DNA of 64,000 bases, from assembly GCF_004010195.1 (NCBI RefSeq), contig NC_057756.1, forward strand, positions 3,566,785-3,630,784, read 5' to 3'. This DNA comes from Chiloscyllium plagiosum (lineage: Eukaryota). The first letter of the stretch is position 1, and every line of letters begins with the position of its first letter. The translations under genes and the position numbers were made by a program. The notes beneath the pieces were generated by a model. The model saw only the letters and a program-made list of their open reading frames with translations. It had not been told where the DNA came from and did no database searches. Of this stretch, positions 16,526-60,930 are shown piece by piece.

Positions 16526-16546
16526 CGCTGATCAAGTGTGAAGCAG
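16526..16546 (+). CDS. 21-nt phase-1 heptad microexon 1 ((A)LIKCEA) of a putative butyrophilin/BG-like coiled-coil gene
   Basis: tttactttattttctaatag|cgctgatcaagtgtgaagcag|gtttgt. Confidence 0.65.
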
Positions 16547-16865
16547 GTTTGTCAGGGAAATGATTTTCCCAACTGTCTCTCCAATTTTTTAAAAAATGTC
16601 CATGTCATAAGTGTGTCACATATCGCAAAGTTATACGGTGGTGTAAGAGTATTCATGGAACTCAAATGTTATACTTACGAATTCAATCAATGCTACTGCA
16701 TTTGGTGAACCACCAGTGAGGCGTCAGCAAATGCTTACCATCAAAACTGGATTGCTTCTAATATCACCTCTTTGTTCAGGTATGGAATTTTTCGAATCCT
16801 CAACTGTTGCATATTTGCTGTTGTTGATAATGCCTTCAATCGATAATGGAAAAGCAGTAAGAACG

Positions 16866-16996
16866 AGAGAGAGAGAAGTGGTGAGGTTGAAGAAAAAGAA
16901 AAGAGAGGCAAAGGGAGACTGTGAGACAGAGGGAGGGAGAGTGACACGCATAGAGAGTTGGATAAATAGATTAGATAGATGGATAGATAGACAGGC

Positions 16997-17053
<57 letters not shown>

Positions 17054-17055
17054 TG

Positions 17056-17138
<83 letters not shown>
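16866..17138. repeat. Compound microsatellite: GA-rich, (GATA)n, then (GACA)n
   Basis: Directly visible. (GATA)n ~16998-17098 switches to (GACA)n ~17098-17138. Confidence 0.97.
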
Positions 17139-17139
<1 letters not shown>

Positions 17140-18119
17140 AATAGTGAGACAGATTGATTCAGTTGATCACAGAGACACAAGGAGAAATGGAAATTTCTAT
17201 ATACATTGACGAATGGAGTGCTCATAGTGCCCACGGTAAACACACTGACCCGCCACTTTGTGCACAGCTGTTAAGTGTTCTGTTTTGTCTTTCTGTGTGC
17301 CTGCATTTTCCGGTGTGTGCTTATATTATTGTGTAGCATTTATGCACTGTTTTAGACAATAGTCATATTTTACTTTATTGGAAAAATCTTTTGTCTAAAG
17401 TACAACACCTCGAACAAAATTACACCAAAGTTCCTTAGGCAGCAGAAAGCCATAAAAACTGTATTTTAATTATCTTTCCAAATCAGAAGAAAAATACTTC
17501 TTGGCTTATCTCTTTATCATAGCATAAGAGAAAACTTGGAGACTCGAGCATAGAAGAAAAGTAAATGATGCATTGTCACATAAAGAACAGTTTCGGCAGT
17601 CTTCAACTTCACCTACACCCAGATTGCACAGGCCTCTCAAGATAGCACTTAAACCTATCAGGTTAGGGCTTTGTGAAAAACATAAACTTGCAGATTATAG
17701 AAATGCTGAAATGCTGAGAGTAGGGATGACTGGACTCCTCCAATTGTCTCAGTGAAAACGGAACCAAAGATTAATTTCCATGCATCGTCTAACTAGGGAT
17801 GTGATAGCCTTACTTATGTAACTGGGTGATAATATGCAACTGGTGTCTAACTATTAAAAAAGTAACAATTGCTCATTAACATTTTTTGAAACGTTTGAAA
17901 AGTGCATCAACATCAGTCAGACAAGGCAGTGAATTTATTGTCGATGGACAAATAATCATTGAACCTTTTTTTTGTTACTACAAGTCTGCACATTTTTTTA
18001 CATGTTTAAATGAGTTTTGCGGAAGGAAAATCATATTTCACGCTCTACATTGACATTATTTTCAAAGAAAAAAATATGTACGTACATAATATTTGTTGTG
18101 TTTCTCTTGATTCTGGCAG

Positions 18120-18140
18120 AAAAACATAAACTAATAGGCG
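18120..18140 (+). CDS. 21-nt heptad microexon 2 (EKHKLIG)
   Basis: tttctcttgattctggcag|aaaaacataaactaataggcg|gtaagc. Confidence 0.75.
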
Positions 18141-19325
18141 GTAAGCTTGTTCAGTGCTTTTACGAATTCTACTCTTGGTTCATGGCGACCTCATGTTCTT
18201 TTCCGGAGCAAATTCAGTGGACACTGTTTCAAGCTTCCCAAAACCGATTTTGTTGCCTATTTCTCTATGGATCATTGGTTGCTATGAGCCTGTTACTCAT
18301 TGAAGACCAATTCGGAAGTTCATATTGACAAGGCTAAAACCAGAGTCAAATCTTTTATTTGAACATCTAATACTTCCTATTGTCATGCTGCATTTATGCA
18401 ATCAAGCAGTGTAGAAATTCAAAAGGCATTAAACCTGAAATGAAAATTTTCGTCAAGAACAGGCAACCATCAATGAAAATAGATTTGTGGAAATCGATAT
18501 GTAATGACCTCAATTAATTGAAAAGTTTGAGTAAAGAACAACAGCACAGCAATGAATTGTTTTTAACAGCACAAAAGCGTAGAAGCCCATTCTGATATGT
18601 TTCTGTTGTGCCAGTTCAGATCTTCAAACAGATTTATATTTGGGATTATTCCATAATTTATTTTTAATTTGTTGATACCTTGTGATCAACACATGTTCCA
18701 ATGCTTGACGTCACGAAACCACATAACATTTCGCCACTCATTTCGGGTATCCAAATCCCAAGCAAAGTGTGGTTCACGCACAAAGTTTGAAGTCGTTGTT
18801 TAGAAGTAGATGCATTGAAAACCTTCTTCTCAGTCTCAGGTTGCAGAATGAGATCTTCATAAGCCCAACTAATGTTGCATTTAACAGCTGCAATACCGTC
18901 CCTCTTTAGCAGATTGCATAGTGGACAATACATCATCACAGGTCGCATTAGCTGTGGAACTGCATAGCATATCGAATTTGGTGTGAGCCAGTATTTTGGA
19001 CAGATGCATGATTCAAGGTTTAAATCTTCACTCATCACATTCATCAGAAACAGATGCCACGTTTATGGATGTCACATACAAAATTAACAGCATTGTGGTT
19101 GATGACGGCATCTCATTGTTCGAAGCAATCACTTTGTTGAATAATTGGGCGAGTTTTATTAAGATTCTGCAGAATTATTTACACATAAATAACGAGATGA
19201 CTTGAAATTGTGATTGTTTTACTTCGAGAAATGTTTATGCCTTCTCTTTCTCTCTCTTTCTGTCTCCTTTCCTCTCTGTCACCTCAATTTGCCCATGTAT
19301 GCTTTCTTTTTACTGTTTCTGACAG

Positions 19326-19346
19326 AGAATCAAAGATTTTCCCACG
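19326..19346 (+). CDS. 21-nt heptad microexon 3 (ENQRFSH)
   Basis: ttctttttactgtttctgacag|agaatcaaagattttcccacg|gtacga (strong acceptor, weaker donor). Confidence 0.65.
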
Positions 19347-19924
19347 GTACGATTAATATCAATTGTTATAATATCAATTTGCTCGTTTTGATGACATTGT
19401 AATGACAGTAGAAACGTATATAGTTGCTTCTAGTGGCAATTGTGCCATTTTAATTTGGATTTATTATTTTTATCTAATATGATAGTATTGAACAATTAAA
19501 GTGAAATCCATATTGGCTTTAAATGAAGCCTCATGTGCTGTTGGAATGTCAGTTAGTACACATTCAACTTGTACAGTTTTATTTTCATTTTTTTCTCTAT
19601 ATTTTGTGTTCATATAATACATTACAGTTTTTAGAAAGTGAATGTCTCCAGAATGGAATATTAGTCATTTGCAAGGTTTTCATTGAATGGGAGGAAAGCC
19701 ATTGAGGACTGAGTGTACGAGAAAACAATTTTGAGAGTCAAACATCATTGTCACTGCACAATGACATGCTTCGTTCATTTTCGTATTTGGTAAAATGTTG
19801 CATTATTTTCTGGAATAATAATTGACGTTTTACTGATCAAATGTAAGTGTAAGTTTCAGAATCTCTGAAGCAACTGTTATAAATTCACTTAAAAAAGACG
19901 AAACTTGGTATCTAATGCTTATCT

Positions 19925-20222
19925 TCTTAGTGAGGTGATGACTGAAGAGCATTATTGTAGGACTGTTAATCCAAAGATCTCGGGATCTGGGTTTTCAATC
20001 CCGCCAGGGCAGATGGTGGAATTAGAATTTAAGCAAAATCTGGAATTAATAGCCAGTATTTTGGAAAAATGTATTGTCGGAAAAAAAAATCCTAGCCAGT
20101 TCACAAATGGGCGAAATGTGTCTCTTGACCCACCACAATGTAATTGATGTCAACGTGGTGGACTGCGCTGTGCGTAATGAGGAACAACCAGCGATGTCCT
20201 CATTCTGTGAATGAATGAAAAA
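19925..20222 (+). mobile_element. Degenerate SINE (tRNA-derived, SacSINE1/Deu-like, L2-type tail)
   Basis: taatccaaagatc...gggttttcaatcccgccagggcagatggtggaattagaattt head and ccagcgatgtcctcattctgtgaatgaatgaaaaa tail. Confidence 0.55.
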
Positions 20223-21064
20223 TAGTAATCAAGAACGGTGACTGCTATTTAAATTAAATACTTTTTTCACTCACAACATTTTGCTTTAGACCACATCCGT
20301 GAGACCACTTCTTTAAGGAAAAAAAAAACTTAACATTGCAAGCGTGAAAACATTTTCAGAAGCACCCTTCAATGCAATGACTTCAAATCGTCTGAGTGGC
20401 TTTTTAAGAATAACATTTCAATTCTTTCAAAATCATAAGTAAATGTATACTTGCATATGTCATATGTCAAATTGATTAACAAACGTATGCTAAAACAAAA
20501 TTCATTAATACAAGATGCATAAAACTATGGACAGATTTTTTAAAAAAGACATGAGATGCAGAATGTTTACACGTTACCTGAACCAGTGAAAGCACTGTTA
20601 TTATACTCGATGTCCGTGTGTTGCAGAACAACACCTTTTCATTTTTTACATCAACAATATGGAAACAGGAAGCAATCGTTTCCAATAGAAATAAGTTTGA
20701 AGCCTCATTGTTGATTGTTTTGTTTAAAAACAAGAACAGATTTGTACTAAAAGCGACCTGGTATTGCCATCAGGAATGTGACAAGCAAGTGGATTGCATA
20801 TATTTCAAAAAAATCGAAGTTGTAGTGAGAGCAAAACCAAGACAATTAAGAATGGTAGTCAAGGCACTGCACATTTGCTGAAGTGGTCCGATTATGTGTT
20901 ATGACATCCACACTATACGACCAGCAATAAAGCACAATTTAGCTAATCAGGCTTTGTAACATTGAAGAAGTAAACAGAATGTTTACGTGACTCAATCATT
21001 TTCCATTCATTAATGGCAGATGAATATAACTGATTTCCTTTTTGAAGCAGCTGATATATTTGAA

Positions 21065-21385
21065 AAAATTATATTCCCTACATTATGGAAACAAGTTATT
21101 TGGCCCAACCAGTCCACATCGACACTCCGAAGAACAACCCACCCCAGACACATTCCTTTACCCCAGACAAATGTAACTAACACTATGGCCAATTTAGCAT
21201 GACCAAATCAACTGGTCTGCTCATCTTTAGATTGGTGAAGGAAAACGAAGCACCCTGAGGAAACCCACGCAGACCTCTGGAGAATGTGCAAATGCCACAC
21301 AGACAGTCATCTGAGATGGAAATCGAACCCGTGTTACTGGCGTTGTGAGGCATTACTATTAAAAACTGAGCCACCGTCCCACCAA
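21065..21385 (-). mobile_element. HE1-type elasmobranch tRNA-derived SINE
   Basis: Reverse complement reads ggtgggacggtggctcag...tgcctcacaacgccag...gggttcgatttcc...gactgtctgtgtggcatttgcacattctcc, giving A/B boxes and the HE1 body. Confidence 0.8.
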
Positions 21386-22769
21386 GCATGCTGCTCTTTT
21401 AATCGATAATCGATTAGACTGATTGTTAGAATTAATTTGAGATTTTCAGCAAGTTGAAGTTCGACAATCTGAATTAATTATTCCACAGACAAAAGCTAGG
21501 ATCACGAGGCATGTTGCATTTGAGGTCTACTCTTTGGTCCGCTTTTGACTTAGGGATGACTAGTTACAATACAAAGCATGTTGTGGCATAATGCCTATGT
21601 GTCGAATATGGCATTACGTTTTTGACTTCAGGAGCATATGACGGGTGTAAGAATGAGGCAGTGATTCATATTGAATTTAGGAGCAACGTGGATTTGAACT
21701 GACAAAGATAGTCAGGGAGTGAGAGCTAAGTTGGTGAATACAGAGAGAGAAAGAAGAGGAGAGAGAGTGAGGGAGGAAGGGATATTGGACTATGTCAACA
21801 TTCAGAAAGGGAAAGAAGAAAGCAAAATTGCACTAAAGCAATATTTCACAAATATTTCATTTGATCTGTGTTAGGTTTAACGTCTTGCCATGATCACACA
21901 ATAGCGAAGCAGAATCTAATCATAAGAATATCTTCAATATTTTCATCAGCAACACAACAGAAGATCGCAGTAATGCGTTATGTCATTTCATTATGATTCC
22001 AGAAATATTCAAAGTTTTGAGATTTATTGATCACCGAATCAAATTGGAGAAAAAAAAATCAATGTAAGTCTAGCTTTCATGCGAGATCAAGTTCCAGACA
22101 ATTTCAGTGACAGACAAGCCAAAACATAGCTTAGGATAGCATCAGTAAAATCAAATAAAAAAATAACTAAGTGACTAATTTGATTTCAGAATGAAGCAAA
22201 TTGTGTATTTCACTCTCTTCAATTTATGCGAGAATAGAGCAGGGATTTCAATATTAAAGTCACCAGTCTGCCAGAATGTCAGACAGGATCTAAAACCATA
22301 CCACCGTGTTATAGAATCAAGCGAATTAGAAACACACCCTTCAGTCCAACTGGTCCCTGCAAACGACATTTCCTTTTACAGATTTTGTGCTATCTCAGAG
22401 TTTCTTTCCAACAGTCGATACTGGAAAATCGTGACAAGTGTCTTCAGGCTGTGTCATTCCAAGGCAGTTAGCAGACCGCAGCTTGCAATGTTCCAATCAA
22501 GATGTCCATCAAACGACGTTTTACCGACGAATCCGACAGTTGAGAGAATGCTGTATAACTGATGTACATTCTCATCGCCAGCTCATTTGTAAGCCGAAGT
22601 TCTGGGAACAACTGATGGTATTCAATGATGTAGTATATTCGAAAAGCCGAATGGCCGAATTCTGCAAATATTTTCGCCATTCATATACTCATAGTCCACG
22701 GCAAGCTTTGTTCAGCCTGCATATTCGTTGTATTCCTGAGAACACAATTGCAAAATTTCAGTAGGAAAT

Positions 22770-22960
22770 GTTGTGGTTCTGTTCGCCGAGCTGGAAATCT
22801 TTGTTGCAAACGTTTAGTCCCCTGTCTAGGTGACATCCTCAGTGCTTGGGAGCCTCCTGTGAAGCGCTTCTGTGGTGTTTCCTCCGGCATTTATAGTGGC
22901 CTGTCCCTGCCGCTACCGGAAGCGGCAACGAGCACCCGGGCTACCAATCTTCACTCAAAC
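22770..22960. mobile_element. Short Penelope-like element remnant (inverted pLTR plus tail)
   Basis: Closely similar to 49640-49790 and 50908-50942. Flanked by the imperfect direct repeat aaatttcagtaggaaat / aaacttcagtaagaaat. Confidence 0.85.
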
Positions 22961-23619
22961 TTCAGTAAGAAATAAATGTTCTCATAGTTTTGCTCAATTA
23001 GGTACACTACAAAATTGTTCAATGTATTCTAACAAACATAAAGGGAATGCCAAACTCCTAAACACTGGCATGGAATTAGGTGAGATCTTCAGTGCTGACA
23101 AATATTGTTGCATTTTTCATCGATTATGTTTGACCCTACATTTGCTCTTCAGGCATAATTTTCATTCAGGTCATCTATAAAGTCTTTCAATTTAAATGCC
23201 ACAACTATTTAAACTGTGGTGTGATATGATGTCAAATAGTTTTGTCATTGTTCCCATCAGAATTACAACACAACATATTTTGCAGCAATCACATTTCATG
23301 CTGGTGGACATCTACAAAGTCAATACGAATGTAATAATTTCATGTCTTTTACTGATGAGACAATTTTCACACAGCCAGGACAACGGTAAGTGTTACGTTT
23401 TTTTTCAAAGCCTCTGGAACAGAATATCTTGAGTGGAATGAAAGTACTGAACTGGAATGAAAAGTGCAGCTAACGAAGAGGAAGATTCAAAGGAAACAAC
23501 GTCGATCATAATTACAGCATACCACGTCCTTCTGCAGTTACTGCATCAGAGAACACAATTGCTGAAGCAGAAGCACAATTGCCCTCCTCTTAGGTCTAAA
23601 AGTAGTACTCCAAAATTGT

Positions 23620-23890
23620 AAAAATCGAAAGAGCTGTAAATGACAATCAAATTAGAGATTGGTGGAAAATCTCAACCGGTCTGGCAGCAACTGAGGATGT
23701 AAGTCAAAGTTAACGTTTCGAGTTGAGTGTCCCTTCTGCAGAAATGCCATCCAGTTCTTCCAACATCCAGTGATGCACGGGTTAGGTGATTGACCATGCT
23801 ATATTGTCCACAGTGTGCACGGATGTGCAGGTCAGGTAGATTAGCCATGAGTAGTGCAGATTTACGGGATGAAATAAATTAGTCAAGATG
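23620..23890. mobile_element. Decayed Penelope-pLTR-like fragment followed by an HE1 SINE fragment
   Basis: ggaaaatctcaaccggtctggcagca...ttaacgtttcgag...cccttctgcag, then gatgcacgggttaggtgattgaccatgcta similar to 48930-49000. Confidence 0.5.
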
Positions 23891-24628
23891 TCACTCTTCG
23901 TTATCAACTTTTTCTGGGATTACAAAAGTTCATACAATCACATATTTGATATTTCCCTTGTCGCATTTTTTTCATAATGACAGCATTGCAAGATGTTTTT
24001 CCTTCATTTAAGTGCATTTCTAAAATGCTGCTATTGAATTCTGTGAAAGGTTGATGAAGCTGCGACTGTTTTGCTTTAAGTCACACAGACAAAAAAAATC
24101 CTCAGTTTTTTTCTTGCATTGTTTAAAACACTAAATGTTATCATTAAACTCACCAATGGCCATCGAATTAATGATCATTTATTGGCTCAGTGTGAAATAA
24201 TCATGAGTGCCATGTTGAGGACCCTACGGGTATTATTGTCTGCCAAACTGTACTTTTTTTTTTGATTAGCGGGTTTCAATACCTTATGCCAAACAAGAAA
24301 AAAGAACACCACCAGTAACTACGAGAGACATCAAAACCTGAAAGAAAGTACCGAATGCATTTTATCATCTCACATGCTTATTTACTTGAATATGACATGT
24401 GAAATTTCGCTTGCATGACTAAGTTTGCATTGGTCTGTGGTCTGCTTTTTGAAACCTTTCTCATTACATGGCAATTGTACACAGCATTTTGAAACTCTTC
24501 TTCTGATCGAAGCGACTTGAGATTGCAAACACCGTTGATAAGCCTCAACTTGCTGCCAAAATGCTTCACTAATTGTACATTATGAATGTTAAAACTACAA
24601 ATTCATTTGTACCCTTTTGCTCCCACAG

Positions 24629-24649
24629 AGCTACAAACCTGTCAAAGAG
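24629..24649 (+). CDS. 21-nt heptad microexon 4 (ELQTCQR)
   Basis: cccttttgctcccacag|agctacaaacctgtcaaagag|gtaata. Confidence 0.8.
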
Positions 24650-25842
24650 GTAATAAAACAAAGACTAATGCACACACATTCACACACACACACACCATCA
24701 AATGTCTTTGTTTTGGGGTCAGAAATTGAAACAAAAGTCAAAATTATCTTTTTAATAAAAAAAGACTTTTCTCAGAAAATCGACTTCCTGTTCGATCAGC
24801 AGCTTTGCAATGTTCAGGTAATTATTGAAGCGAATTGATTTCCTTTGTTCATTCCAGTGATCAGAAGTATCAGCTGTTTGTGGCCCTATATGACAAATCT
24901 GCGTTGATGGTTTTGTACGTGTATGGATCATCATTCGTTGGATTCAATGTAGCACATTGAAGAGATAGACGTTTTCATTAAGGAAATAGAGGCAAATTCA
25001 AAATGGAAAGTACAAAAAAAACTTTATTGCTGCATCAAAAGATCTGCAGAAACATTCAATGTGAATGTGGGAGAGATCTGCAAGCCAATAATTTGGGGAA
25101 AGAAAGTAACTTATTCACAGAAATGATTGCATGCCACCATCTAAAATGTTGCCTATATTCGATGACTAACAGGACAATGTGGTGAGATTACATCGTAATA
25201 GATAAACAAATAAGCAAATAAAGCATATTGAAAATTGAAGAACGGTTAGTGTTGCATTGAGAGTGAAGAATTCTTGCACTGTCATTGGCATATTAAGAAT
25301 GTCGATACTTTGCATCATAATAAAAACGAAAATCACGTATGTTTTTCAAGGAAATTGCTTGAATTCAAGTGTCTATCATATGCTTCCTTCGAAATATCTA
25401 TAAAGACACACGCACAAAACATATAAGTGATACACACAGATCTTCTTCTGCTGTTACAGTCATATACTTCAAGTTATTTATTGATACAAATGCAATAGAA
25501 ATTACTCGATGCAACACAGAACACGAGTACGAGCAGAAATATGGAAACATTGAAAAGTTATAACTTGACTTCCTTTTTAATGATGCATTTCTACAGTTTT
25601 TCTTTTTCTTGTTAGCTTGAATACACAAAACCGTGCCATAGCTGGAAAAAAGTTCACTCGCACGGGAAAATTGATTTAAAACCCTCCATCAAACAAGTAA
25701 ATGTGAAAGCACATTTTAAAATCTCTTGCAAAGATGATATAAATCTGATAATCATCGTTGTGCCCATGGGCCTGAGCTGAGCTTACCATAGAAATATCAT
25801 GTTTGTACTGAATTCATGCATTTTTTCTTGACCCATGTTCAG

Positions 25843-25863
25843 AGCTGGAACACTGTCGAAAAG
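25843..25863 (+). CDS. 21-nt heptad microexon 5 (ELEHCRK)
   Basis: ttttttcttgacccatgttcag|agctggaacactgtcgaaaag|gtaaga. Confidence 0.8.
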
Positions 25864-27043
25864 GTAAGACATGGCATCGTGCCACCCATACCCCCACAAC
25901 CAAAAACAAACGTCGAATTTCAAGGCATAAATAGGTTAGTCATTCATTTTTTTTTAAAAAAAAGGGTCATACATTACAATGTCTACACAAAAATGCTATT
26001 TTTAAATGACGACATTCACAAAGCATGGATTTTCCGTACCGACTGTACGATTGTAGCATTCAACAATTATTCAGAAGACTCTACATGCTCACTATCCACC
26101 CTGGTGCTGTCACCTCCTTGTTGGTTGTGACCTCTACTACTGTCTTCAAATTTGCTTTTGTGCATTTCTGGTTTTGGTGCATAGAATTGACAAAAAAAGG
26201 TATAATGAAAGATTGTCTTTTATTCTAAGGCAAACAAATCCACACGAAATCAGGACGAGGTTATGAGATGCAAACGAAGTCAGTTAGTAGAATGAAAAAA
26301 ATAATCCATGTAACTGATTACATCTTTTCATCATACACAATATTTATATTTGATAACAGACTGGTAAAGTATTAAGATTAGATCCTGCCTGACAGAAACA
26401 AGATATATTAAATAGAGATTAAGCACAACAAAACAGTTTGCATTGCATTTGTCTTCTTGAAATTCTGATTCTCTGGTCAGCAAATTAGAAGGCCCAAATT
26501 TATACATCACCTTTAAAAAGGAATCACTTACATTGATTTTCACATTTATGCGATTTGAATGCAAATTTTCATCTTCTATTACTTCCTAAGCATCTGCAAA
26601 GACTGAGCAAATAATGCTGTTTTATGCACTCAGATGTATTTGCGCTGTTAATGCAGCTAGCTCGTGTTATATTACAACATCAATGAATTAAGAAAATGTC
26701 TGACGAACATGCAGTACAAATCTGGAAGATGTTTCAAATGGAGCATTAAATTCGTTGTAAATTTAATAATTAGTTTTATTTCTTTATAATATTTTCCCAT
26801 TTGATGTTTCATTTTGTATTTTAATTCATAAGAACCATATCACGACAAACAGGAATGGGCTCTTCCATTTAGATGCATGTGTTCAATATGATTTAAAATT
26901 TGATTTAAGACTAATCCATGTGAGGTGAAATGGCAGAGTATCTCGACAGGTTGTATCTGGTCGTTGAATTTCTAGCCAGGGTATGTGCACGAGATGGAAA
27001 ATATTCGCTGAAAGTTTAATTTTCTTATTTCCTATTCTCACAG

Positions 27044-27064
27044 AACTTGCAAATCTTCAAAAAG
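27044..27064 (+). CDS. 21-nt heptad microexon 6 (ELANLQK)
   Basis: tttcttatttcctattctcacag|aacttgcaaatcttcaaaaag|gtaagc. Confidence 0.85.
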
Positions 27065-27939: not shown

Positions 27940-28460
27940 TCTTAATGGTATGTTTATTGGTAAAGTAGGTGTGCCTGGGATTTCGGGTGAGCTTGTCAAT
28001 TGCATGCATAATTTACATAATGAAAGGAGACACCGATGGCTGTTGGATTGTTTGACTTTGGAATGGAGGAATGTCACGAGCGGTTTTCCAATGGTGTCAG
28101 TTCTGGATCCTCATCTGATTTTCATTTCCATCATTAATTTGTATGAGAATATCAAAGACAATGGTCGATAGCAAAATTGCTGTCATAGTAAAGAGAGAAA
28201 ATATTTTTCTCTGATTTCAACGGGATCTTGATCAGATGGGTCTGTTGGCTGAAAGAAAAAAGCTGGTACAGTTGAATTGCTGTATTGTATTTTGGTGCAA
28301 CAAGCAGTGGCAAGAATATTGCATTTCATGAAACTACCTTGGATACTTCATTAGAACAGAGGGTCAAAGGGTTTAGGAACATACTTCTTTGAAGATTGCA
28401 TCACAAGTCGACAGGGTGTCCAAAAAGGCGTTTAACACACAGCCCTGCATTCTTCAGTGT
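27940..28460 (+). mobile_element. CR1 RT fragment
   Basis: GISGELVNCMHNLHNERRHR...EWRNVTSGFPMVSVLDPHLIFISIINL resembles CR1 [26 protein letters not shown]. Confidence 0.75.
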
Positions 28461-31960: not shown

Positions 31961-31964
31961 TTGC

Positions 31965-45319: not shown

Positions 45320-45340
45320 AACCTTCGAATTTAAAGTACG
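45320..45340 (+). CDS. 21-nt heptad microexon 7 (EPSNLKY)
   Basis: gtttgtttatctccgacag|aaccttcgaatttaaagtacg|gtaaga. Confidence 0.75.
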
Positions 45341-47428: not shown

Positions 47429-47449
47429 AGCTGGCAAAGTGTAAAGTAG
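47429..47449 (+). CDS. 21-nt heptad microexon 8 (ELAKCKV)
   Basis: tttatcgttcttcccaaacag|agctggcaaagtgtaaagtag|gtaaga. Confidence 0.85.
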   Translation, partial: SWQSVK

Positions 47450-51697: not shown

Positions 51698-51718
51698 AAC
51701 TGACACATTGCCAAGCAG
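51698..51718 (+). CDS. 21-nt heptad microexon 9 (ELTHCQA)
   Basis: ttattcttctctcctctcag|aactgacacattgccaagcag|gtaaaa. Confidence 0.85.
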
Positions 51719-52959: not shown

Positions 52960-54450
52960 TATTCCAGAAGCAGGAAGTGCGGGAGCGTGGAGAAGTACGC
53001 TGTCAGGAAGGTGAAGAAAACATTTAAAAACTCACCTCCGGCGTCAGGACCTACCATTGATGTTCCAGCAGCAGGACGTGCAGCCGCGTCGAGCAGAAGG
53101 ATTTCAGGAAAGTAAGGAAAAATGTTTAAAAACTCACCTCTTTAGTCAGTGCTCAACATTGTTGTTCGAGCAGCCAAAGTTGCTGCAGCGTCAAGCAGGT
53201 GGCCGTCTGAGAGATCACAAGATTACATATTTGGGCGGTAGCTTTATCCGAGACACGACTCGAGTAGTGTCTCCCACCCATGCTCTTCCTCTAATAAAAA
53301 AAAACATTCTGAGCGTAGGCTGTCAAGGTGGTAATTGTTTTCTGATGCAATTCATTTTTTCAGCAGTTTATATGGGAATTTAGAATAGTGGAAATTGAGG
53401 TTAGGGCAGTCGAATGTTCCTCCTGCTGTATGGGGGAGCTAAGGGTCGCCTTTAGTGTCCCTGATGACTTTATTTGTGGAAGTGCATCCAACTCCAGTTC
53501 TCGAGAACTGTTTTAGGGAACGGGAGCTGGAGATTGATGAACTTCGGATTATTCGGGAGGCAGAAGGGATTGTTGAGAGGAATTGTAGGGATGTAGTTAT
53601 TCCATTGTCATGTGAAAATGTTAGATGGGTTAATGTCAGGGGTAGGAAAGGGAACCAGCAGACAATGCAAGTATCTCCTGTAGTAGTTCCACTTAACGGC
53701 AAGTATGCCGTTTTTGACACTGTTTTGAGGGGATGAATTACCAGAGTAAGGAAATGTGGTAGAGTTCTTTGGCGTAGAGTCAGACCTAGCTGCTCAGAAT
53801 TGAAGGGGAAAAAGGAACAGAGCTTTAGTTATTGGAGATTCAATAGTTAGAGGGACAGACAGGAAGTTATGTGGCAATGAGAGAGACTCGCGATAAGTTT
53901 GTTGCCTCCCACGTGCCAATGTTCATGATGTCTCTGATCATGTTTTCCGGAACATTTAGCGGTGGGGGGGGGGGGGGGGTATGCCCATATTCGTGGTGCA
54001 CATAGGCACCAACAACACATGTCAGAAGAAAGGTGAGGACCTAAGGCAGAAATTTACCGAGTCACATTGGTCACTTCGAGTTAGAAAAAACAGCTTTGTT
54101 GTCTATGGTTTGTTGCCGCCGCCACGTGCTAGTGAAGCAAGGAACATATGGAGAGCAAATCGGAACAGGTGGCAGAAGGTTTGGTGAAGGATTCAGGGTG
54201 TATTTTTGGGGAAGGTGGGTCCTCTACAAAGAGGATGGTCTTTACTTGAAACAGAGGGGTGCTAATATTCCAGAGTGGAAGTTTGCTTATGCTCTTTTGG
54301 GGGTTTTAAAATAATGGAGCATGTGGATGAAAATCTGAATGGTAATTCCAGTGTACCTGAGTTTGAGGGTAGCGAGGGCAGGGAGAGGTTTACAAGGTCA
54401 CGAGAGGGTACAAAATTAGCATGCTGCTTCGAAAGGGACTCAGGGGGCTG
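52960..54450 (+). mobile_element. CR1 LINE 5' UTR and ORF1 (zinc-finger/leucine zipper plus SGNH esterase), degenerate
   Basis: VECSSC, ELEIDELRIIREAEGIVE, VIGDSIVRGTDRKLCG, VVHIGTNN and LYKEDGLYL. The 5' UTR has a repeated unit (aaaaactcacctc at ~53027 and ~53128). Confidence 0.85.
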
Positions 54451-54454
54451 AGTT

Positions 54455-56017
54455 GAGTATGTTTGCAAAAGAGAAAGTGCTTGAAAAGCTAAAAGGTCTT
54501 AAAATTGATAAATCTCCTGGCCCCGATGGGCTACATCCTAGAGTCCTGAGGGAGGTAGCTGAGGAAACAGCGGAGGCGTTGGTTGAGATCTTTCAAAAGT
54601 CACTGGAGTCAGGGATAGTCCCGGATGATTGGAAGATCGCTGTTGCAAACCCCTTGTTCAAGAAAGGATCAAGACAAAAGATGAAAAATTATAGGTCAAT
54701 TAGCCTAACCTCGGTCGTTGGTAAAATTCTAGAATCCATCATTAAGGATGAGGTTTCTAAACTCTTGCAAGAGCAGGGTCGGATTAGAACAAGTCAACAT
54801 GGATTCAGTCAGGGGAGGCCGTGCCTGACAAACCTGTTGGAGTCCTTTGAAGAGGTGACAAGTAGGTTAGACCGGGGAAACCCAGTGGATGTGGTCTACC
54901 TAGACTTCCAAAAGGCCTTTGATAAGGTGCCACATGGGAGGCTGCTGAGCAAGGTGAGGGCCCATGGTTTTCGAGGTGAGCTACTGGTATAGATTGAGGA
55001 TTGGCTGTCTGACAGAAGGCAGAGAGTTGGGATAAAAGGTTATTTTTCTGAATGGCAGCCGGTGACAAGAGGTGACCCGCAGTGTTCAGTGTTGGAGCCG
55101 CAGCTGTTCACAATATATATTAATGATCTGGATGAAGGGACTGGGGGCATTCTAGCGACGTTTGCCGATGATACAAAGTTAGGTGGACAAGCAGGCAGTA
55201 CTGAGGAAGTGGGGAGGCTGCAGAAGCATCTAGGCAGTTTGGAAGAGTTGTCTAGGAAATGTCGGATGTAATTTAACATGAGCAATGCGAGGTCTTGCAC
55301 TTTGGTAAAAAGCATACAAGCATGGACTACTTTCTAAACGGTGAGAAAAATCGTAAAGCCAAAGTACAGAGGGATCTGGGAGTGCTAGTTGAGGATTCTC
55401 TAAAGGTAAACATGCAGGTTGAGTCTGTGATTAAGAAAACGAATGCAATATTGTCAATTATCTCAAGAGGGTTGGAATATAAAAGCACTGTGCTACTGAG
55501 ACTTTATAAAGCTCTGGTTAGGCCCCATTTGGAGTACTGTGTCCAGTTTTGGTCCCCACACCTCAGGAAAGACATACTGGCACTGGAGCATGTCCAGCAG
55601 AAATTCACACGGATGATCCCTGGAATGGTAGGTCTAACATATGAGAGGGTGGACGCTAGGAAATTGGAGAGGGTGGACGCTAGGAAATTGTTTTCGTTAG
55701 GCGAGGAGACTAGGACCCGTGGACACAGCCTTAGAATTAGAGGGGGTAAATTCAGAACAGAAATGCGGAGACATTTCTTCAGCCAGAGAGTGGTGGGCCT
55801 GTGGAATTCATTGCCGCAGAGTGCAGTGGAGGCTGGGACGCTAAATGTCTTCAAGGCAGAAATTGATAAATTCTTGATGTCACAAGGAATTAAGGGCTAC
55901 AGGGAGAATGCGGGTAAATGTAGTTGAAATGCCCATCAGCCATGATTGAATGGTGGAGTGGACTCGATGGGCCGAATGGCCTTACTTCCGCTCCTACGTC
56001 TTATGGTCTTATGGTCT
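54455..56017 (+). mobile_element. Younger 5'-truncated CR1 LINE (RT to 3' tail) nested between ORF1 and ORF2 of the older CR1
   Basis: KSPGPDGLHPRVL, QHGFSQGRPCLTNLL, YLDFQKAFDKVPH, FADDTKLGG and LVRPHLEYCVQFWSP with few disruptions; ends in a cttatggt repeat tail. Confidence 0.95.
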
Positions 56018-58410
56018 AAATGTGTGCACTTCAATGCCAGAAGCATCTAGAATAATGTGGGTGAACTTGCAGCATTGGTTGGTACGTTGGATTTCGATGT
56101 TGTGGCAATTTCATAGACATGTCTAGAGGAGGGAGATGAATGGTTGTTGCAGATTTCAGGAATTAGATGTTTCAGCAAGAACAGAGTTGATAGTAAAAGA
56201 TGGAGGGGGTGTGGTATGGTTAAACACGGTAGTATTGTAGCAGCTGAGAGAACGTTAGAGGACACATCTACTGAGATATTTTGGGAAGAGGTTAAAAACA
56301 ATAACAGAGGAGTCATCCTTTTGTGAGTTTCCTATAGGCCTTTGCATTATTCCAGGGATGTCGAGGAAATGATAGCAAAGATGAATCTCGACAGGAGCGA
56401 CAGTAACTGGGCAGTTGTTACGGGGGACTTTCCCTTCCCCAGTATTACTTTAGTTCAAATAATTTTGGTGGATCTGTTTTTGTTCAAGGTGTGTGGGAGG
56501 GTTTTCTGACACAGTATGTAGACAGGCCAACAAGGGGTAATGCTCTATTGGATTCGGAACTGGGAATCGATCCCAGCCAGGTGTTAGATGTGAAAGCAGA
56601 TGAGCAGTTTGGCGATTGTGACTAAACTTCGGTAAGACTTACAATAGTAATGGGCAGGGATAGACATATACTGCAGTGAAAGAGGTATAACTGATGAAGG
56701 TCAATTATGATGCGATTTGAAATTTGGGCACTTTTGAAAGTTGGAGTTCATTCAAGGAACAGCCATTCATCAGCGGTACTTGATAAGTATGCTGCATACC
56801 TACCAGGCAGGGAGGTAGTTGTTGAGAGAGCGAGCCATTGTTTAACAAAGAACTTGAAGCTCATGTCAAGACGATGAAGAAGGCTTACGTGAGGATGAGG
56901 CACGAGGCTCAGCTGCGGGTTTTGAGTGTTACACGTTCGGCAGAAAACATCTAAACATAGGTCGAAGAAAATCAAGGGGAGAACATGAGAAGTTGTTGGT
57001 GGACAGAATCACGGAAACCCCGAGGGCTCTCTATGAATATATCAGGATTAAAATAATGAGTAAAGTAAGATTGGGGCAATCAAAAGTAGTAATGGAAAGT
57101 TGTGTGTTGATACAAAGGTCATAGGGGAAGCACTTAATGAATACTTTTCGTCTGTATTCACATTGAAAAGGGCAGTGTTTGTCACAATACAGAGATACTC
57201 ACTACAGGATTGAGGTTGACAAAGAGGAGGGTTTATCACTTTAGAAAGTTCTGAAAAAAGCAAAGATCCCTGGGACGGATGGGGTTGATCCTAAGATTCT
57301 CGGGGAAGCCCGGGATGAGATTGCAGAGCCTTTGGCTTTGATTTTGTGTGATCATCATCGACAAGATTAGTGCCAGAAGTCTGGAGAATCTCAAATGTTG
57401 TTCCCTTCTTAAGTTGGGGGTAAGGTGTTGGGAAATGTCATAAGAGATGGGATTGAAAATCATCTGGAAAAAGAATACTTTCTTTTGAGATAGTCAACAG
57501 GTTTTATGAAGGGTAGGTCGTGCCTCACGGACGTTACGGAGTTCTTCGAGATGGTGACAAACAGATGGATGAAGTTAAAGCGGATCATGTGGTGTATTTG
57601 AATTTCAGTAAAGTGATTGATAAGGTTCCTCACGTCAGTCTATTGCACAAGATACGGAGTTTCGATTCGTTTAGCGGTTTGGATCAGAAATTGGCTAGCT
57701 CAAAGAAGACAGAGGGTTTTGGTTGATGGAAAATCTTCATCCTGGAGCTCAGTTACCAGTGGTGTGCCCCAAGAATCTGTTTTGTTCGCAAGTTTTGAGA
57801 AGATTTGTCGCTCAGGTCGAAGGAGATTATCAGTCGCAGAGGGACATAGATAAGATGCAGAGCTGGACTGAGAAGGCGCAAATGGAGCTTGAAGCAGAGA
57901 AGTGTGAAGTAATTCACTGTGGAAAAAAAAACAGGAATGCAGAGTGCTGGGCTAATGGTAAAATTCTGAGCAGTGTAGAATAACTAAGAGATCTCGGTGT
58001 CCAGATATGTAACTCCCTGTAAGTTGCCACACAGGTTAATAGGGTTATTAAGAAGGCATATGGTGAGTTGGCCTTTAATGGTAGTGATGTTACGTTTTGG
58101 AACCACGATGTCGTGCTTCAGCTGTACGAGACACGGTGAGATCATACCTGCAGTACTGCATGATGTTCTGGACACCGAATTATAGGAAGGATGTGGAAGC
58201 TTTGGAAATGTTTCAGAGGAGATTTACTAGGCCTGCGTGCATCAGTAGTGGACTCTCCAACGTTAAGGATATTGAAATGAGCGTTGGACATTCATATGGA
58301 TAATAATGGAACGGTGTAAATTAGAAGGGCATCAGATTATTTTCACAGGTCAGTGCAAAATCGAGGACTGAATGGCCTGTACTGTGTTGCGTTTTATGTT
58401 CCATGTTCCA
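56018..58410 (+). mobile_element. Older CR1 ORF2 (APE endonuclease to 3' end), continuing 52960-54450
   Basis: KCVHFNARSI...GELAA at the endonuclease start; YLNFSKVIDKVPH; WIRNWLAQRRQRV...VTSGVPQESV; CR1 tail at ~58370-58410. Confidence 0.85.
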
Positions 58411-58640
58411 AATACTGCAGATTAAATTCCACACGTCGATAGGTGCAGCAGTATTTGTGTTTTATGAAATGATTTCTGTTCATCATTGTTTAAATCAAAT
58501 TACCTGTTGAAAGAGATTGGCATTTGATAATCGTGTGTTTAGAGAGTGTTTGTTGTTGTAAGTTGACTAACTTTTCTTGCTGTTATCGTTCATTTAAAAA
58601 ATGGTTATGTTTGGTAATATTAGTTGTCTTTTTATTTCAG

Positions 58641-58661
58641 AATTGAAGATCTTAAGAAATA
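58641..58661 (+). CDS. 21-nt heptad microexon 10 (ELKILRN)
   Basis: gttgtctttttatttcag|aattgaagatcttaagaaata|gtaagg. Confidence 0.8.
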
Positions 58662-60909
58662 GTAAGGACATTTGGAATATTGATGGTACACTTACTTTAA
58701 ATGTAGAGACATGAAATCAAATGGTTGTGCTTGCAATATCTCTATATTGCCATTGCATGCTCCGAATTATTTTGAAATATTCAATCCTTGAGTACAGATT
58801 CAGATACTTGCTGAGGGCAAATCGTGATGCTAGATTCTTTGCTTAAAAAGAAAATAGTTATGGTGAACATTCATCTTGTCAGTTTGTATAGCCTACTTTG
58901 ATCGAAATATCGGAATACACAAGGCAATAAAGGTCTGAAACGTTAAAAAAATGTATTTCACAGAGAATTAGTTGAAGGGTTTGGCGTGTGGTGGATTGAT
59001 AGCAAATTTGACAAAAGTATTAGAAGGCGTTTTTAATGCAAAATGTCACGATAGCACACTTGAGTTATCAAATTAATTGTTTCAAACAAAGCGACATTGT
59101 GCAAACAAAACTGTATTCACGCAGTATAGAAGGTTCATAATTATTTTTTAAACTGGCGAAGGTGGAAGTTTGGATGACAAATACAACTGAAACGAAAATT
59201 GAGACCATATCAAGTGGAGAATATGCAGAAGCAACGATCTGGCTTTACAGCTGGATGCTCGGTAAACAAATAAATTCACGACAGGCATGTGACCATTGGA
59301 TATCAGAAAATGTTGTTTCCGACCAAACTGCGATGTTTCAACGAGCAATGGACTTCTACATAGCGGTTTAGTCATACATCATAATTTGACACATTATGAT
59401 AAATGAGTAGAAAGTGTGAAACAGGTGCTATGCAATTAAGTTTGGAAATGTTTATGCTGTTGCAATAATTTGAGCATTAATCCACTGTCATCGAGACAGT
59501 GTATTAACTGCAGCTGAATATAATTAATAAATTCGTTTGTAAATTAAATGCAGTTACATTTGAAGGTAAATTGCAATTTGCGGCCCAAAAAAGTGTATCT
59601 CATGAGGCCAGGATGATGCATCTCGCCAATGCAAAAACCCAGAGCGCTGTATCTAGGAAATAAAGTCGTAACTCCGTTGTCTTCTACGCAAAGCAGTTAA
59701 CCATGAATACTTTGCTTGTGTTCATTCCTGAATTAATTAGTTCAATCTAGTTAAAAATTCTCACCATATTGGTATTCAATTGCTTATCCATTCCCTGAAA
59801 TCCAGCCACGTTAATGCATTATTAATTTTTCTGACATTAAAATCAATTTACTGTCCTAAAACGTATGCAATAAGTCATATAGCACCAGGCATTCATATTA
59901 ATTAACTTTCATTCTTTGGGCGAATAACAATGAGTGATATCTTGAAACAGACTGACCTGTACTTTGTTAAAAAAACCTTTGTGTGCAACGTATTTTCTTT
60001 ACCATAATTGTCTCATGATAAGACATGTCAACACTTACTTGCAGATTTCATGTACTATCACAGTATTCTATTCCTGGTTTTGATGCTGCACACTGTAATA
60101 ACTCCACAGTTCAATGCACCAATCGTTTTTTGACATGGTAATGTCGACAAAGGCATTGCATGCAACAGTTTATTAAGATGTCATTGAAGTTTATTGAATA
60201 CCAATAAACCTTTGGTGCAACTTGTCGATGATTACAGTTTTCACAATTAATCTGTAACATCCTAAAAGCGTTTGCTTCAATCCTTCCTTGGCTATTAAAC
60301 ACACGTAGTTGTCCAGATGTTTGGAATGACAAGCTGGTACTCGCCTCCACCATTATATAAGGCAGACACTCATCACCCACTGTGTGATGAAACCTTGCCA
60401 GACTCAACACATTTTGTTGTGTTCCCCACTGACCTTCCATTCCATCCCATATTGTTTAATGCTCTACTAACACTGGTAAAAACAGTTAGCTATTTCTACA
60501 TTATTATTTGTTATCCTTCATTGTTTTGCAGACGTTTAAAGAGTCACCCCTCAGTCTCCGAAGTTCCTGGAAATCAAACACCATCCTACCCAGACTCTCC
60601 GTATACTATAACAATTCTGTCCACTATTAAAGGCAGAGAGAAATGCATACGGTGAATTATTTATTTTCGTTTGAAACAATTTTCATTTCAAATGTCCATA
60701 AAACATGTGATGAAATACTGTGTGCTTGTTTTTGGTATCTTGGCACAGTGTCATTTAAAATCACTTCATTCGCTGAAAAGGTGCACGTGGGTGTTCAATC
60801 GCCTGGTGAATCTTGCATTATATTAAAAGTTTCTGCCATACAGTGTTCGTGTGTGCAAGGAATGCAAGTGGGCTAGTATGTTTAATTTAATACTATTTTG
60901 CCTTCATAG

Positions 60910-60930
60910 ACGTGGCAAATTATCCACAAG
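60910..60930 (+). CDS. 21-nt heptad microexon 11 ((N/D)VANYPQ)
   Basis: tactattttgccttcatag|acgtggcaaattatccacaag|gtaaga. Confidence 0.75.

What the first reader, a model, noticed from the sequence alone, without database searches (positions are those of the whole stretch)
16526..60930. Hidden gene: at least 11 dispersed 21-nt microexons, one coiled-coil heptad per exon (butyrophilin/BG-like architecture)
Seen: eleven + strand segments of exactly 21 nt (16526, 18120, 19326, 24629, 25843, 27044, 45320, 47429, 51698, 58641, 60910), all in non-repeat DNA. Each lies between a polypyrimidine-AG acceptor and a GT donor (7 of 11 GTAAG). Only phase 1 is stop-free in all of them; phase 0 has stops in exons 1, 2, 9 and 10, phase 2 in exons 2 and 8. 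Joined they give (A)LIKCEA EKHKLIG ENQRFSH ELQTCQR ELEHCRK ELANLQK EPSNLKY ELAKCKV ELTHCQA ELKILRN NVANYPQ, with hydrophobic residues mostly at positions 2 and 5 (a/d pattern) and Glu formed across most junctions. Established: runs of 21-nt heptad exons encode the cytoplasmic coiled coil of butyrophilins and, in long arrays, of chicken BG proteins. Inference: this is part of a very long shark BTN/BG-like immune gene (231 coding nt over 44 kb) that ORF finders would miss. A BG-style long heptad array in a cartilaginous fish would be notable.
Basis: partly seen in the sequence, partly recalled or inferred. Interest (0 to 1): 0.9.

Follow-up and report, generated by a model that had tools for sequence, protein, structure and literature searches.

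The report
Giant shark gene of heptad microexons
The eleven 21-base segments look like real protein-coding mini-exons from a much larger, unannotated shark gene that spells out a long coiled-coil rod one seven-residue turn per exon, and it probably belongs to a cartilaginous-fish family ending in a SPRY domain, not to the butyrophilins.

Summary
All 11 segments are AG-(21 nt)-GT, and only one frame is open in all of them. Such candidates number 11 on the + strand against 0-3 for every other length or strand.

The array extends far beyond the window. There are 30 strong exons in the 324 kb read and 3 more pattern hits upstream. Together they span C47:3.34-3.75 Mb, and a second block lies at 2.32-2.73 Mb.

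The product is a textbook heptad coil: acidic g, Leu/Asn a, Leu/Cys d, basic e.

The BTN/BG assignment is not supported. No Ig, TM or B30.2 exon was found in 334 kb. No BTN-type Ig-C exon lies on the contig. The heptad register differs from chicken BG.

The best lead is a phase-1 B30.2 exon 830 kb downstream on the same strand. Its closest relatives are chondrichthyan proteins with an anchor, a coiled coil and a SPRY domain. One is a 1,697-aa Callorhinchus protein that shares the same (E/D)LxxC heptad signature and is built from tiny exon cassettes.

No RNA evidence could be obtained, and linkage to the B30.2 exon is unproven.

The parts
16526..16546 (+). 21-nt phase-1 heptad microexon (weakest splice sites of the set; split codon gives Ala, not Glu/Asp)
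   Evidence: AG/GT flanks, open only in offset-2 frame; splice scores 3.7/5.6; array PWM 23.4
18120..18140 (+). 21-nt phase-1 heptad microexon
   Evidence: 5.5/9.4; PWM 24.9
19326..19346 (+). 21-nt phase-1 heptad microexon (Asn at the a position)
   Evidence: 6.5/6.3; PWM 19.7
24629..24649 (+). 21-nt phase-1 heptad microexon, E-L-x-x-C type
   Evidence: 6.6/5.7; PWM 36.7; matched by genome pattern
25843..25863 (+). 21-nt phase-1 heptad microexon, E-L-x-x-C type
   Evidence: 4.6/10.3; PWM 31.9; pattern hit
27044..27064 (+). 21-nt phase-1 heptad microexon
   Evidence: 7.7/11.0; PWM 36.8; pattern hit
45320..45340 (+). 21-nt phase-1 heptad microexon (Pro at position 2)
   Evidence: 5.0/8.8; PWM 33.1
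47429..47449 (+). 21-nt phase-1 heptad microexon, E-L-x-K-C type; best match to the array consensus
   Evidence: 4.1/8.8; PWM 44.6; hit by all three specific genome patterns
51698..51718 (+). 21-nt phase-1 heptad microexon, E-L-x-x-C type
   Evidence: 9.8/6.9; PWM 37.6; pattern hit
58641..58661 (+). 21-nt phase-1 heptad microexon (ends in A, so the next split codon reads Asn)
   Evidence: 4.5/5.5; PWM 18.8
60910..60930 (+). 21-nt phase-1 microexon with Tyr-Pro, a likely break in the coil
   Evidence: 2.2/10.3; PWM 35.5

Best explanation
The eleven segments are genuine coding microexons. They are the middle of an array of at least 33 exons of 21 nt, all with phase-1 introns on both sides. The array spans at least 410 kb (C47:3.34-3.75 Mb), with introns of 1-31 kb (median 5.5 kb). 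Each exon adds one heptad to a long alpha-helical coiled coil with acidic g, Leu/Asn a, Leu/Cys d and Lys/Arg/Gln e. That pattern fits a parallel dimer with g-e' salt bridges. Because every exon is symmetric, any exon can be skipped or duplicated without breaking the frame or the heptad register, so rod length can vary through splicing and unequal crossing-over. Strong splice sites (28 of 30 CAG acceptors, 19 of 30 GTAAG donors) and purine-rich exon bodies probably allow such tiny exons to be recognised between long introns. All of this is shown from sequence statistics.

The following is inferred. The gene is the giant member, in this shark, of a cartilaginous-fish family with an N-terminal hydrophobic anchor or signal, a coiled coil of variable length built from microexon cassettes, and a C-terminal SPRY-type B30.2 domain, with no Ig, RING or B-box. 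It would then end in the phase-1 B30.2 exon at C47:4,577,5xx-4,578,016, so the transcription unit would exceed 1.2 Mb. The rod would hold a SPRY binding head away from a membrane. In that sense it would work like the cytoplasmic half of a butyrophilin or BG protein without being a member of that family.
For: Real exons. L=21 + strand enrichment is 11 vs 0-3 and 26 vs 0-7. A PWM scan gives 30 exons scoring 14-45 against a best minus-strand score of 10.3. All 30 are open in one frame, against 70.7% of 2124 null AG-21-GT segments (P about 3e-5). 26 of 30 start with A and end with G, against 6.6% of null segments. Position 1 is acidic in 26 of 29, position 2 hydrophobic in 19 of 30 (plus 4 Asn), position 5 hydrophobic in 25 of 30. 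Hydrophobic power at period 3.5 is 5.2 against 0.2 +/- 0.2 for shuffles (max 1.85 of 2000). When AG/GT are left out of the score, 26 of 28 + strand matches still have both dinucleotides.

Extent. Three specific patterns put 11 of 14, 10 of 45 and 9 of 42 genome-wide hits on C47 +, all within 2.32-2.73 or 3.34-3.75 Mb.

Family. There is one SPRY exon on C47 + at 4.58 Mb with a phase-1 acceptor, and one phase-compatible 21-nt exon candidate lies 1.8 kb upstream of it. Its nearest relatives among 1.84 billion representatives are chondrichthyan SPRY-only proteins. P0048 (Callorhinchus, 1697 aa) has a hydrophobic N-terminus, about 1450 aa of coiled coil, then SPRY. The shared signature: 8 of 9 Cys in the shark product and 11 of 22 in P0048 sit in [ED][LIVM]xxC, against 40 of 2078 in the other 149 relatives and 0 of 20 in two true chondrichthyan BTNs. 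Isoforms and model versions in ray, catshark and Callorhinchus differ by in-frame cassettes of 6-18 aa, many starting with D/E/G.
Against: No transcript evidence exists. The last heptad exon found and the B30.2 exon are 830 kb apart, and none of the three patterns hit in that gap. Those patterns recover 13 of the 30 known exons, so the gap holds either different exons or none. No N-terminal anchor exon was found: the P0048 N-terminus gave 0 matches in the genome. Similarity of the conceptual product to the P0048 coil is only pattern and composition: 40 bits, against 45 +/- 4 for heptad-order shuffles and 32 +/- 4 for residue shuffles. Callorhinchus cassettes are mostly 9 and 12 aa, not 7. In old duplicated blocks the exons are only slightly better conserved than their flanks (16-17 of 21 nt against 67-69%). 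One decayed copy (donor CT) and one stop-containing copy exist.
Confidence: 0.5

Rival explanations
1. A self-contained coiled-coil gene that ends near C47:3.75 Mb in a short terminal exon and UTR (BG-style tail, no B30.2). Its family would be unknown, it would have arisen by tandem exon duplication, and the 4.58-Mb B30.2 exon would belong to a separate small gene.
For: No heptad-type hits lie between 3.75 and 4.58 Mb with three patterns. No heptad exon lies in the 22 kb after the last exon. The family also has small members of 295-460 aa in other species that could correspond to the 4.58-Mb exon. Chicken BG tails end in a UTR exon.
Against: No terminal exon or poly(A) context could be identified. 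The Cys-heptad signature is otherwise seen only in the B30.2-ended Callorhinchus giant. The B30.2 exon has the matching phase and a 21-nt exon candidate just upstream.
Confidence: 0.25
2. One reading: a butyrophilin/BG-like immune gene with leader, Ig V (with or without Ig C) and TM exons upstream of the array.
For: Arrays of 21-nt exons with the same 1+2 split codon are described only for BG/BTN genes in the papers my searches found. BG genes have 27-37 such exons. P0048 begins directly with a TM-like helix followed by basic residues, which is the BTN tail topology. The V-set search was incomplete, with 150 of 1319 candidates scored.
Against: No Ig or TM exon was found in 334 kb. PF22705 (BTN Ig-C) has 49 matches from 96 of 96 scored candidates, none on C47. 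No PRY hit lies on C47 (150 of 292 scored). The core register is at codons 2/5, against 4/7 in BG. The skate relative P0178 has the same Ig-less N-terminal hydrophobic start, so the architecture is not a truncated BTN model. The Ig cluster on C47 includes a nectin-1 orthologue, not BTNs.
Confidence: 0.12
3. A non-functional relic or chance pattern: the segments are not spliced into any mRNA today.
For: No RNA support was obtained. One decayed and one stop-bearing copy exist. Exons are only slightly more conserved than flanks in old duplicates.
Against: Chance is excluded by the length, strand, frame and heptad statistics. 26 of 28 body matches keep both AG and GT, although duplicated flanks have diverged to 67-69% identity. 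The a, d and g positions are kept while b, c and f vary among duplicated exons.
Confidence: 0.08

Closest known systems
Chicken BG genes (butyrophilin family): cytoplasmic tail of 27-37 exons of 21 nt (PMC4046983, PMC5938342; passages read)
   Same: Exon length of 21 nt (a few of 18 or 24). The same split codon (1 nt from the previous exon, 2 from the next). Tens of exons, one heptad each. A predicted dimeric coiled coil with charged e/g positions. Cys occurs among core residues. Exon number varies through unequal crossing-over and splicing.
   Different: In BG the hydrophobic core is at exon codons 4 and 7; here it is at 2 and 5. BG genes are compact: the intron 1 sizes read are 113-354 nt. 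Here introns are 1-31 kb. BG has leader, Ig V and TM exons, and none was found here. BG ends in a UTR exon with no B30.2.
Callorhinchus milii XP_042192744.1 ('nuclear-pore anchor-like'; older model XP_007898089.1 'myosin-2 heavy chain-like'), P0048/P0161
   Same: A very long coiled coil carrying the [ED][LIVM]xxC heptad signature. It is assembled from tiny in-frame cassettes. Its C-terminal SPRY-only B30.2 is 41% identical to the exon on this contig. It has no Ig, RING or B-box.
   Different: Cassettes seen there are mostly 9 and 12 aa. It has DKDPTGST and 40-aa repeat blocks that were not seen here. There is no collinear alignment with the shark product. Its gene structure could not be read here.
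Small chondrichthyan coiled-coil + SPRY proteins auto-named TRIM39-like (Scyliorhinus canicula), A33-like (Narcine bancroftii), TRIM69-like (Leucoraja erinacea)
   Same: They are the closest relatives of the C47 B30.2 exon (37-45% identity). Coiled coil precedes SPRY. Isoforms differ by microexon-sized cassettes starting with Asp. The skate protein has a hydrophobic N-terminus.
   Different: Only 295-460 aa. Few or no Cys heptads. The names imply TRIM, but no RING or B-box is present.
Mammalian and shark butyrophilins (e.g. Heterodontus BTN1A1-like, P0120)
   Same: A few juxtamembrane heptads followed by a B30.2 domain, and phase-1 exon logic.
   Different: IgV + IgC ectodomain, only about 3 heptads, PRY + SPRY both detected. 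The BTN genes of this shark lie on other contigs, mainly C37.

Membership tests
Butyrophilin (BTN/BTNL) | Extracellular Ig V domain exon | tested here: inconclusive
   No V-set hit in any + ORF of 334 kb. In the genome-wide search only 150 of 1319 candidates were scored, and the only C47 hit (10.2 Mb) is nectin-1. The sequence upstream of 3.437 Mb was not read.
Butyrophilin (BTN/BTNL) | BTN-type Ig C domain (Pfam PF22705) | tested here: not met
   All 96 candidates scored, 49 matches, none on C47.
Butyrophilin (BTN/BTNL) | C-terminal B30.2 with PRY and SPRY directly after a few heptad exons | tested here: not met
   The nearest B30.2 exon is 830 kb downstream and scores for SPRY only. No PRY hit on C47 (150 of 292 scored).
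Butyrophilin / BG | Heptads encoded by 21-nt exons with a 1+2 split codon | tested here: met
   compared with the description read.
Chicken BG | Hydrophobic a/d residues at exon codons 4 and 7 | tested here: not met
   Here they are at codons 2 and 5 (19 of 30 and 25 of 30), against the BG description.
Chicken BG | Leader, single Ig V and TM exons before the array; UTR exon after it | tested here: inconclusive
   None found in the 334 kb read. The ends of the array lie outside or at the edge of what could be read.
Chondrichthyan anchor + coiled-coil + SPRY family (P0048-like) | Coiled coil built from in-frame microexon cassettes | tested here: met
   The shark array; cassettes in relatives.
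Chondrichthyan anchor + coiled-coil + SPRY family (P0048-like) | [ED][LIVM]xxC heptad signature of the giant member | tested here: met
   8 of 9 Cys here and 11 of 22 in P0048, against 1.9% in the other relatives.
Chondrichthyan anchor + coiled-coil + SPRY family (P0048-like) | C-terminal SPRY-only B30.2 in the same transcript | not testable with these tools
   An exon of that subfamily is present on the same strand 830 kb downstream, but physical linkage in an mRNA could not be tested.
Chondrichthyan anchor + coiled-coil + SPRY family (P0048-like) | N-terminal hydrophobic anchor or signal | tested here: inconclusive
   The P0048 N-terminal 241 aa gave 0 matches in the genome. The region upstream of the array was not read.
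TRIM | RING and B-box exons | tested here: inconclusive
   None in the ORFs of 334 kb, and the closest B30.2 relatives lack them. The genome search with a TRIM protein was swamped by B30.2 hits.
CD23-like type II C-type lectin receptor with coiled-coil stalk | C-type lectin domain exons downstream of the stalk | tested here: not met
   Lectin_C: 133 of 133 candidates scored, 43 matches, none on C47.

The most novel reading that the evidence does not exclude
Both heptad blocks and the B30.2 exon form one transcription unit of about 2.3 Mb (C47:2.32-4.58 Mb) with on the order of a hundred or more 21-nt exons. It would encode a membrane-anchored, Cys-zippered coiled-coil rod of more than 1000 residues tipped by a SPRY domain. 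This Ig-less family would be the ancient source of the 'heptad microexons + B30.2' module that butyrophilins and BG later joined to B7-type Ig domains.
Probability: 0.15. Interest if true: 0.9.

Novelty: new variant of a known kind. Interest (0 to 1): 0.72.

Why it matters
Long arrays of one-heptad 21-nt exons have been described only for avian BG genes, where introns are tiny. Here the same coding logic appears in a cartilaginous fish, in a gene with no detectable Ig part, and with exons separated by kilobases to tens of kilobases.

Three things follow. (1) It is a gene that standard annotation will miss: no elasmobranch giant form was found among annotated proteins. (2) It is a hard natural test case for how the spliceosome defines 21-nt exons between long introns. 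(3) It bears on the origin of the heptad + B30.2 tail of butyrophilins.

It also points to an undescribed chondrichthyan family of coiled-coil + SPRY proteins that currently carry misleading automatic names (TRIM39-like, A33-like, nuclear-pore anchor-like, myosin-like).

Tried and rejected
RNA evidence. The look-up of sequencing runs listed no RNA holder. I laid two single-cell poly(A) runs, one possible RNA contig set and one DNA run on window 10001-30000. One RNA run laid nothing at all. The others gave depth only on repeats (0-0.09 in the exon-bearing bins) and no splice joints. 21-nt exons may not be placeable by that method, so this says nothing either way.

A loose exon pattern returned chance-level counts (136 against 237 for the control), and its list was cut before C47, so it was uninformative.

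Two B30.2 searches for longer proteins returned only 3 and 4 distant TRIM-type hits. An own-genome search with a TRIM protein was swamped by B30.2 exons. The P0048 N-terminus found nothing in the genome. tblastn of the family proteins against all held DNA matched only the B30.2 exon; the N-terminus of P0011 hit LINE fragments.

A scan for phase-1/1 exons of other sizes gave 24 candidates. None was convincing apart from a 24-nt NAGNAG variant at window -114850.

The idea that each array is followed by its own B30.2 is rejected: the close paralogues lie at C47:0.99 Mb (+) and 1.30 Mb (-) only. The idea that the C2-set_2 hits on C47 (11 of 98, at 5.69-10.21 Mb) mark a BTN neighbourhood is rejected, because the one I read is nectin-1.

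Earlier-findings look-ups by place, relatives and words gave nothing on this locus.

Literature searches found no description of heptad-microexon arrays outside BG/BTN and none of this chondrichthyan family. I saw only listings and abstracts for papers other than the five whose passages I read.

Full report
OBSERVATION. The eleven claimed segments are in the sequence exactly as described. Each is 21 nt, preceded by AG and followed by GT, and 7 of 11 donors are GTAAG. Only the frame that begins at exon base 3 is open in all of them. The conclusion stands.

Its weights were written from general knowledge, and the thresholds were chosen after seeing the 11 segments. At acceptor >=2 and donor >=5 bits, L=21 on the + strand gives 11 hits. 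Every other length from 9 to 60 on either strand gives 0-3, and L=21 on the minus strand gives 2. At stricter thresholds (5,4) the count is 5 against 0-2. A DNA run covers the bins holding exons 1-6 at word depth about 9-37, against hundreds to more than a million in the repeat-bearing bins, so those exons lie in unique DNA.

THE ARRAY IS FAR LARGER THAN THE WINDOW. The window is C47:3566785-3630784 of a 3.56-Gb assembly. Earlier notes of this scan call it a shark, and the closest relatives of the one domain exon I found are chondrichthyan. I read 130 kb upstream and 140 kb downstream.

- In 264 kb the generic model gives 26 hits for L=21 on the + strand, against 0-7 for lengths 15-30 on either strand.
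- A position weight matrix trained on the exons finds 30 candidates, from window -114847 to 182122, scoring 14-45. The best minus-strand score is 10.3.
- Three degenerate exon patterns run on the whole genome put 11 of 14, 10 of 45 and 9 of 42 hits on C47 +. Reversed-pattern controls gave 0/0, 6/7 and 26/21.
- These hits add three exons upstream (C47:3339215, which has one mismatch and a GC donor, 3403050 and 3410540). They also reveal a second block at 2.32-2.73 Mb whose exons are near-identical to each other.
- No hit falls in 2.73-3.34 Mb or 3.75-4.58 Mb.
- Introns in the part I read are 1,065-30,800 nt, median 5,533. They carry LINE, Penelope and integrase fragments.

CODING SIGNAL.
- All 30 exons are open in the same frame. 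Among 2124 other AG-21-GT segments of the region, 70.7% are open in that frame, so P is about 3e-5.
- 26 of 30 begin with A and end with G, against 6.6% of null segments. The split codon therefore reads Glu or Asp in 26 of 29 junctions.
- Codon 2 is strongly hydrophobic in 19 of 30 (16 Leu), plus 4 Asn. Codon 5 is hydrophobic in 25 of 30 (10 Leu, 9 Cys).
- Codons 4 and 6 are each basic in 14 of 30, and codon 6 is Gln in 8 more.
- Hydrophobic periodicity at 3.5 residues is 5.2, against 0.2 +/- 0.2 for shuffles (maximum 1.85 of 2000).
- When the AG and GT dinucleotides are left out of the score, 28 + strand sites score at least 14, and 26 of them carry both AG and GT. One clear decayed copy (donor CT) lies at -111090.
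- Exons are 65% purine against 50% in the introns. 28 of 30 acceptors are CAG, and 19 of 30 donors are GTAAG.
- Old block duplications among exon neighbourhoods (67-69% identity over 440-800 nt) keep the a, d and g positions while b, c and f change. The exons themselves are only slightly better conserved than their flanks.

WHAT IT IS NOT.
- Pfam scans of every + strand ORF of at least 75-90 aa in 324 kb, and of ORFs of 40-75 aa at both ends and in a further 10 kb, found only transposon domains above threshold. There was no Ig, PRY, SPRY, RING, B-box or lectin domain.
- A scan for phase-compatible exons of other sizes found nothing convincing.
- BTN-type Ig-C (PF22705): 96 of 96 candidates scored, 49 matches, none on C47.
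- Lectin_C: 133 of 133 scored, 43 matches, none on C47.
- PRY: none on C47 among 150 of 292 scored.
- V-set: only one hit on C47, at 10.2 Mb, among 150 of 1319 scored. That gene is a nectin-1 orthologue (E = 8e-30).
- So the 11 C2-set_2 hits on C47 at 5.69-10.21 Mb do not mark a butyrophilin neighbourhood.
- The BG papers (passages read: PMC4046983; PMC5938342) describe the same exon length and the same 1+2 split codon, with 27-37 exons per gene. They place the hydrophobic core at exon codons 4 and 7. Here it is at codons 2 and 5.

THE LEAD.
- The SPRY search (150 of 293 scored) found one exon on C47, on the + strand, at 4577660-4577983.
- The 5 kb I could still read show a 177-codon terminal B30.2 exon with a phase-1 acceptor. 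It scores for SPRY only (4.9e-18).
- 1.8 kb upstream lies the only 21-nt AG...GT candidate of that stretch. It has a near-perfect donor and a compatible phase.
- In solved structures the exon matches TRIM58/21, pyrin and BTN3A1 about equally.
- Its close paralogues in this genome are at C47:0.99 Mb (+, 59%) and 1.30 Mb (-, 42%). None follows either heptad block directly.
- An exhaustive search of 1.84 billion representatives gave 2603 hits.
- Of the 41 best hits that I scanned with Pfam, the closest ones carry SPRY only. True butyrophilins (V-set + C2-set_3 + PRY + SPRY) and TRIMs are more distant.
- The close ones are all chondrichthyan and carry automatic names: 'TRIM39-like' (Scyliorhinus canicula), 'A33-like' (Narcine bancroftii), 'TRIM69-like' (Leucoraja erinacea) and 'nuclear-pore anchor-like' (Callorhinchus milii, XP_042192744.1, 1697 aa).

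The Callorhinchus protein starts with a hydrophobic helix followed by a basic cluster. It continues as about 1450 residues of coiled coil and ends in the SPRY domain. The skate protein has the same hydrophobic start, so the Ig-less layout is not an artefact of one gene model.

Its coil carries the signature seen in the window. 11 of its 22 Cys lie in [ED][LIVM]xxC (shuffle mean 1.0, maximum 6 of 1000), as do 8 of 9 in the shark product. That compares with 40 of 2078 in the other 149 relatives and 0 of 20 in two true chondrichthyan butyrophilins.

Isoforms or model versions in three species differ by in-frame cassettes of 6, 9, 9 and 9-18 residues, many starting with Asp, Glu or Gly. That is what skipped phase-1 microexons would produce.

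Against homology in the strict sense, the shark product aligns to that coil no better than its own heptad-order shuffles do (40 against 45 +/- 4 bits; residue shuffles 32 +/- 4). No elasmobranch giant form is annotated within reach of the word-based search (2 hits of 7999 candidates, both Callorhinchus).

MECHANISM. Shown from sequence: an array of symmetric phase-1 exons, each supplying g-a-b-c-d-e-f of one heptad. Any subset of exons keeps both frame and register. The g = acidic, e = basic/Gln pattern with Leu/Asn at a fits a parallel two-stranded coiled coil; that rule comes from established coiled-coil knowledge and was not tested here.

Inferred: rod length is tuned by exon number and alternative splicing. 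Splicing of 21-nt exons between long introns relies on strong splice sites and purine-rich exonic enhancers. The rod links an N-terminal membrane anchor to a C-terminal SPRY binding domain. If the basic cluster after the anchor obeys the positive-inside rule, rod and SPRY are cytoplasmic, which is the topology of a butyrophilin or BG tail without the ectodomain. If the hydrophobic start is instead a cleaved signal, the d-position Cys would make a disulfide-stapled extracellular rod. I cannot decide between these.

VERDICT.
- Real coding microexons: about 0.9.
- Member of the chondrichthyan coiled-coil + SPRY family, ending in the 4.58-Mb exon: about 0.5.
- Separate B30.2-less coil gene: 0.25.
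- True BTN/BG with Ig domains: 0.12.
- Relic or chance: 0.08.

No transcript evidence could be obtained. This is the main gap.

Noticed in passing
G000:C47:2320161-2725814 (outside the window): A second block of heptad-type 21-nt exons on the same strand, about 0.6 Mb upstream of the block holding the window. Four of its exons (2.64-2.73 Mb) are near-identical to each other and have GGTGA donors, which suggests recent tandem amplification.
   Followed up: partly
L034:4000-4517 (G000:C47:4577499-4578016): A terminal B30.2 exon (SPRY only by Pfam) with a phase-1 acceptor, and a single 21-nt exon candidate 1.8 kb upstream at L034:2169-2189. Close paralogues lie at C47:994524-995036 (+) and 1296638-1297138 (-).
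   Followed up: yes
L029:8911-8931 (window -111090) and L020:2895-2915 (window 96895): Two damaged exon copies. One has a heptad-like body but a CT in place of the GT donor. The other has intact splice sites but an in-frame stop.
   Followed up: partly
L029:5150-5174 (window -114850/-114847): A tandem CAGCAG acceptor, so this exon can be read as 21 or 24 nt (7 or 8 residues). This matches the occasional 24-nt exons described for chicken BG.
   Followed up: no
window 16950-17139: An (ATAG)n microsatellite of about 47 copies, 400 nt downstream of the first exon.
   Followed up: no
window 54420-55268 (+), 9031-9366 (+), 423-707 (-): Retroelement fragments inside the introns: reverse transcriptase (RVT_1), integrase core (rve) and an ALKBH8_N-type match. 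The flanks also carry LINE endonuclease, a GDSL-esterase domain and a GIY-YIG (Penelope-type) fragment.
   Followed up: no
window 42451-42757: A 153-nt unit duplicated in tandem at 97% identity, containing T8-G11 homopolymer runs.
   Followed up: no
L035 (G000:C47:10206200-10206650): The V exon of a nectin-1 orthologue (E = 8e-30 to solved nectin-1). Eleven C2-set_2 Ig exons lie on C47 between 5.69 and 10.21 Mb.
   Followed up: partly
P0011 (Scyliorhinus canicula XP_038668997.1): Residues about 63-120 of this annotated 'TRIM39-like' protein match LINE-type ORF fragments scattered through the shark introns, so that gene model probably includes transposon sequence.
   Followed up: no
window 18005-18671, 24008-24674, 25342-26008: The single-cell RNA run left traces of depth (0.03-0.09, that is one or two partial reads) in three unique bins that each hold a heptad exon. 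The tool output does not show these reads, so they cannot be interpreted.
   Followed up: no
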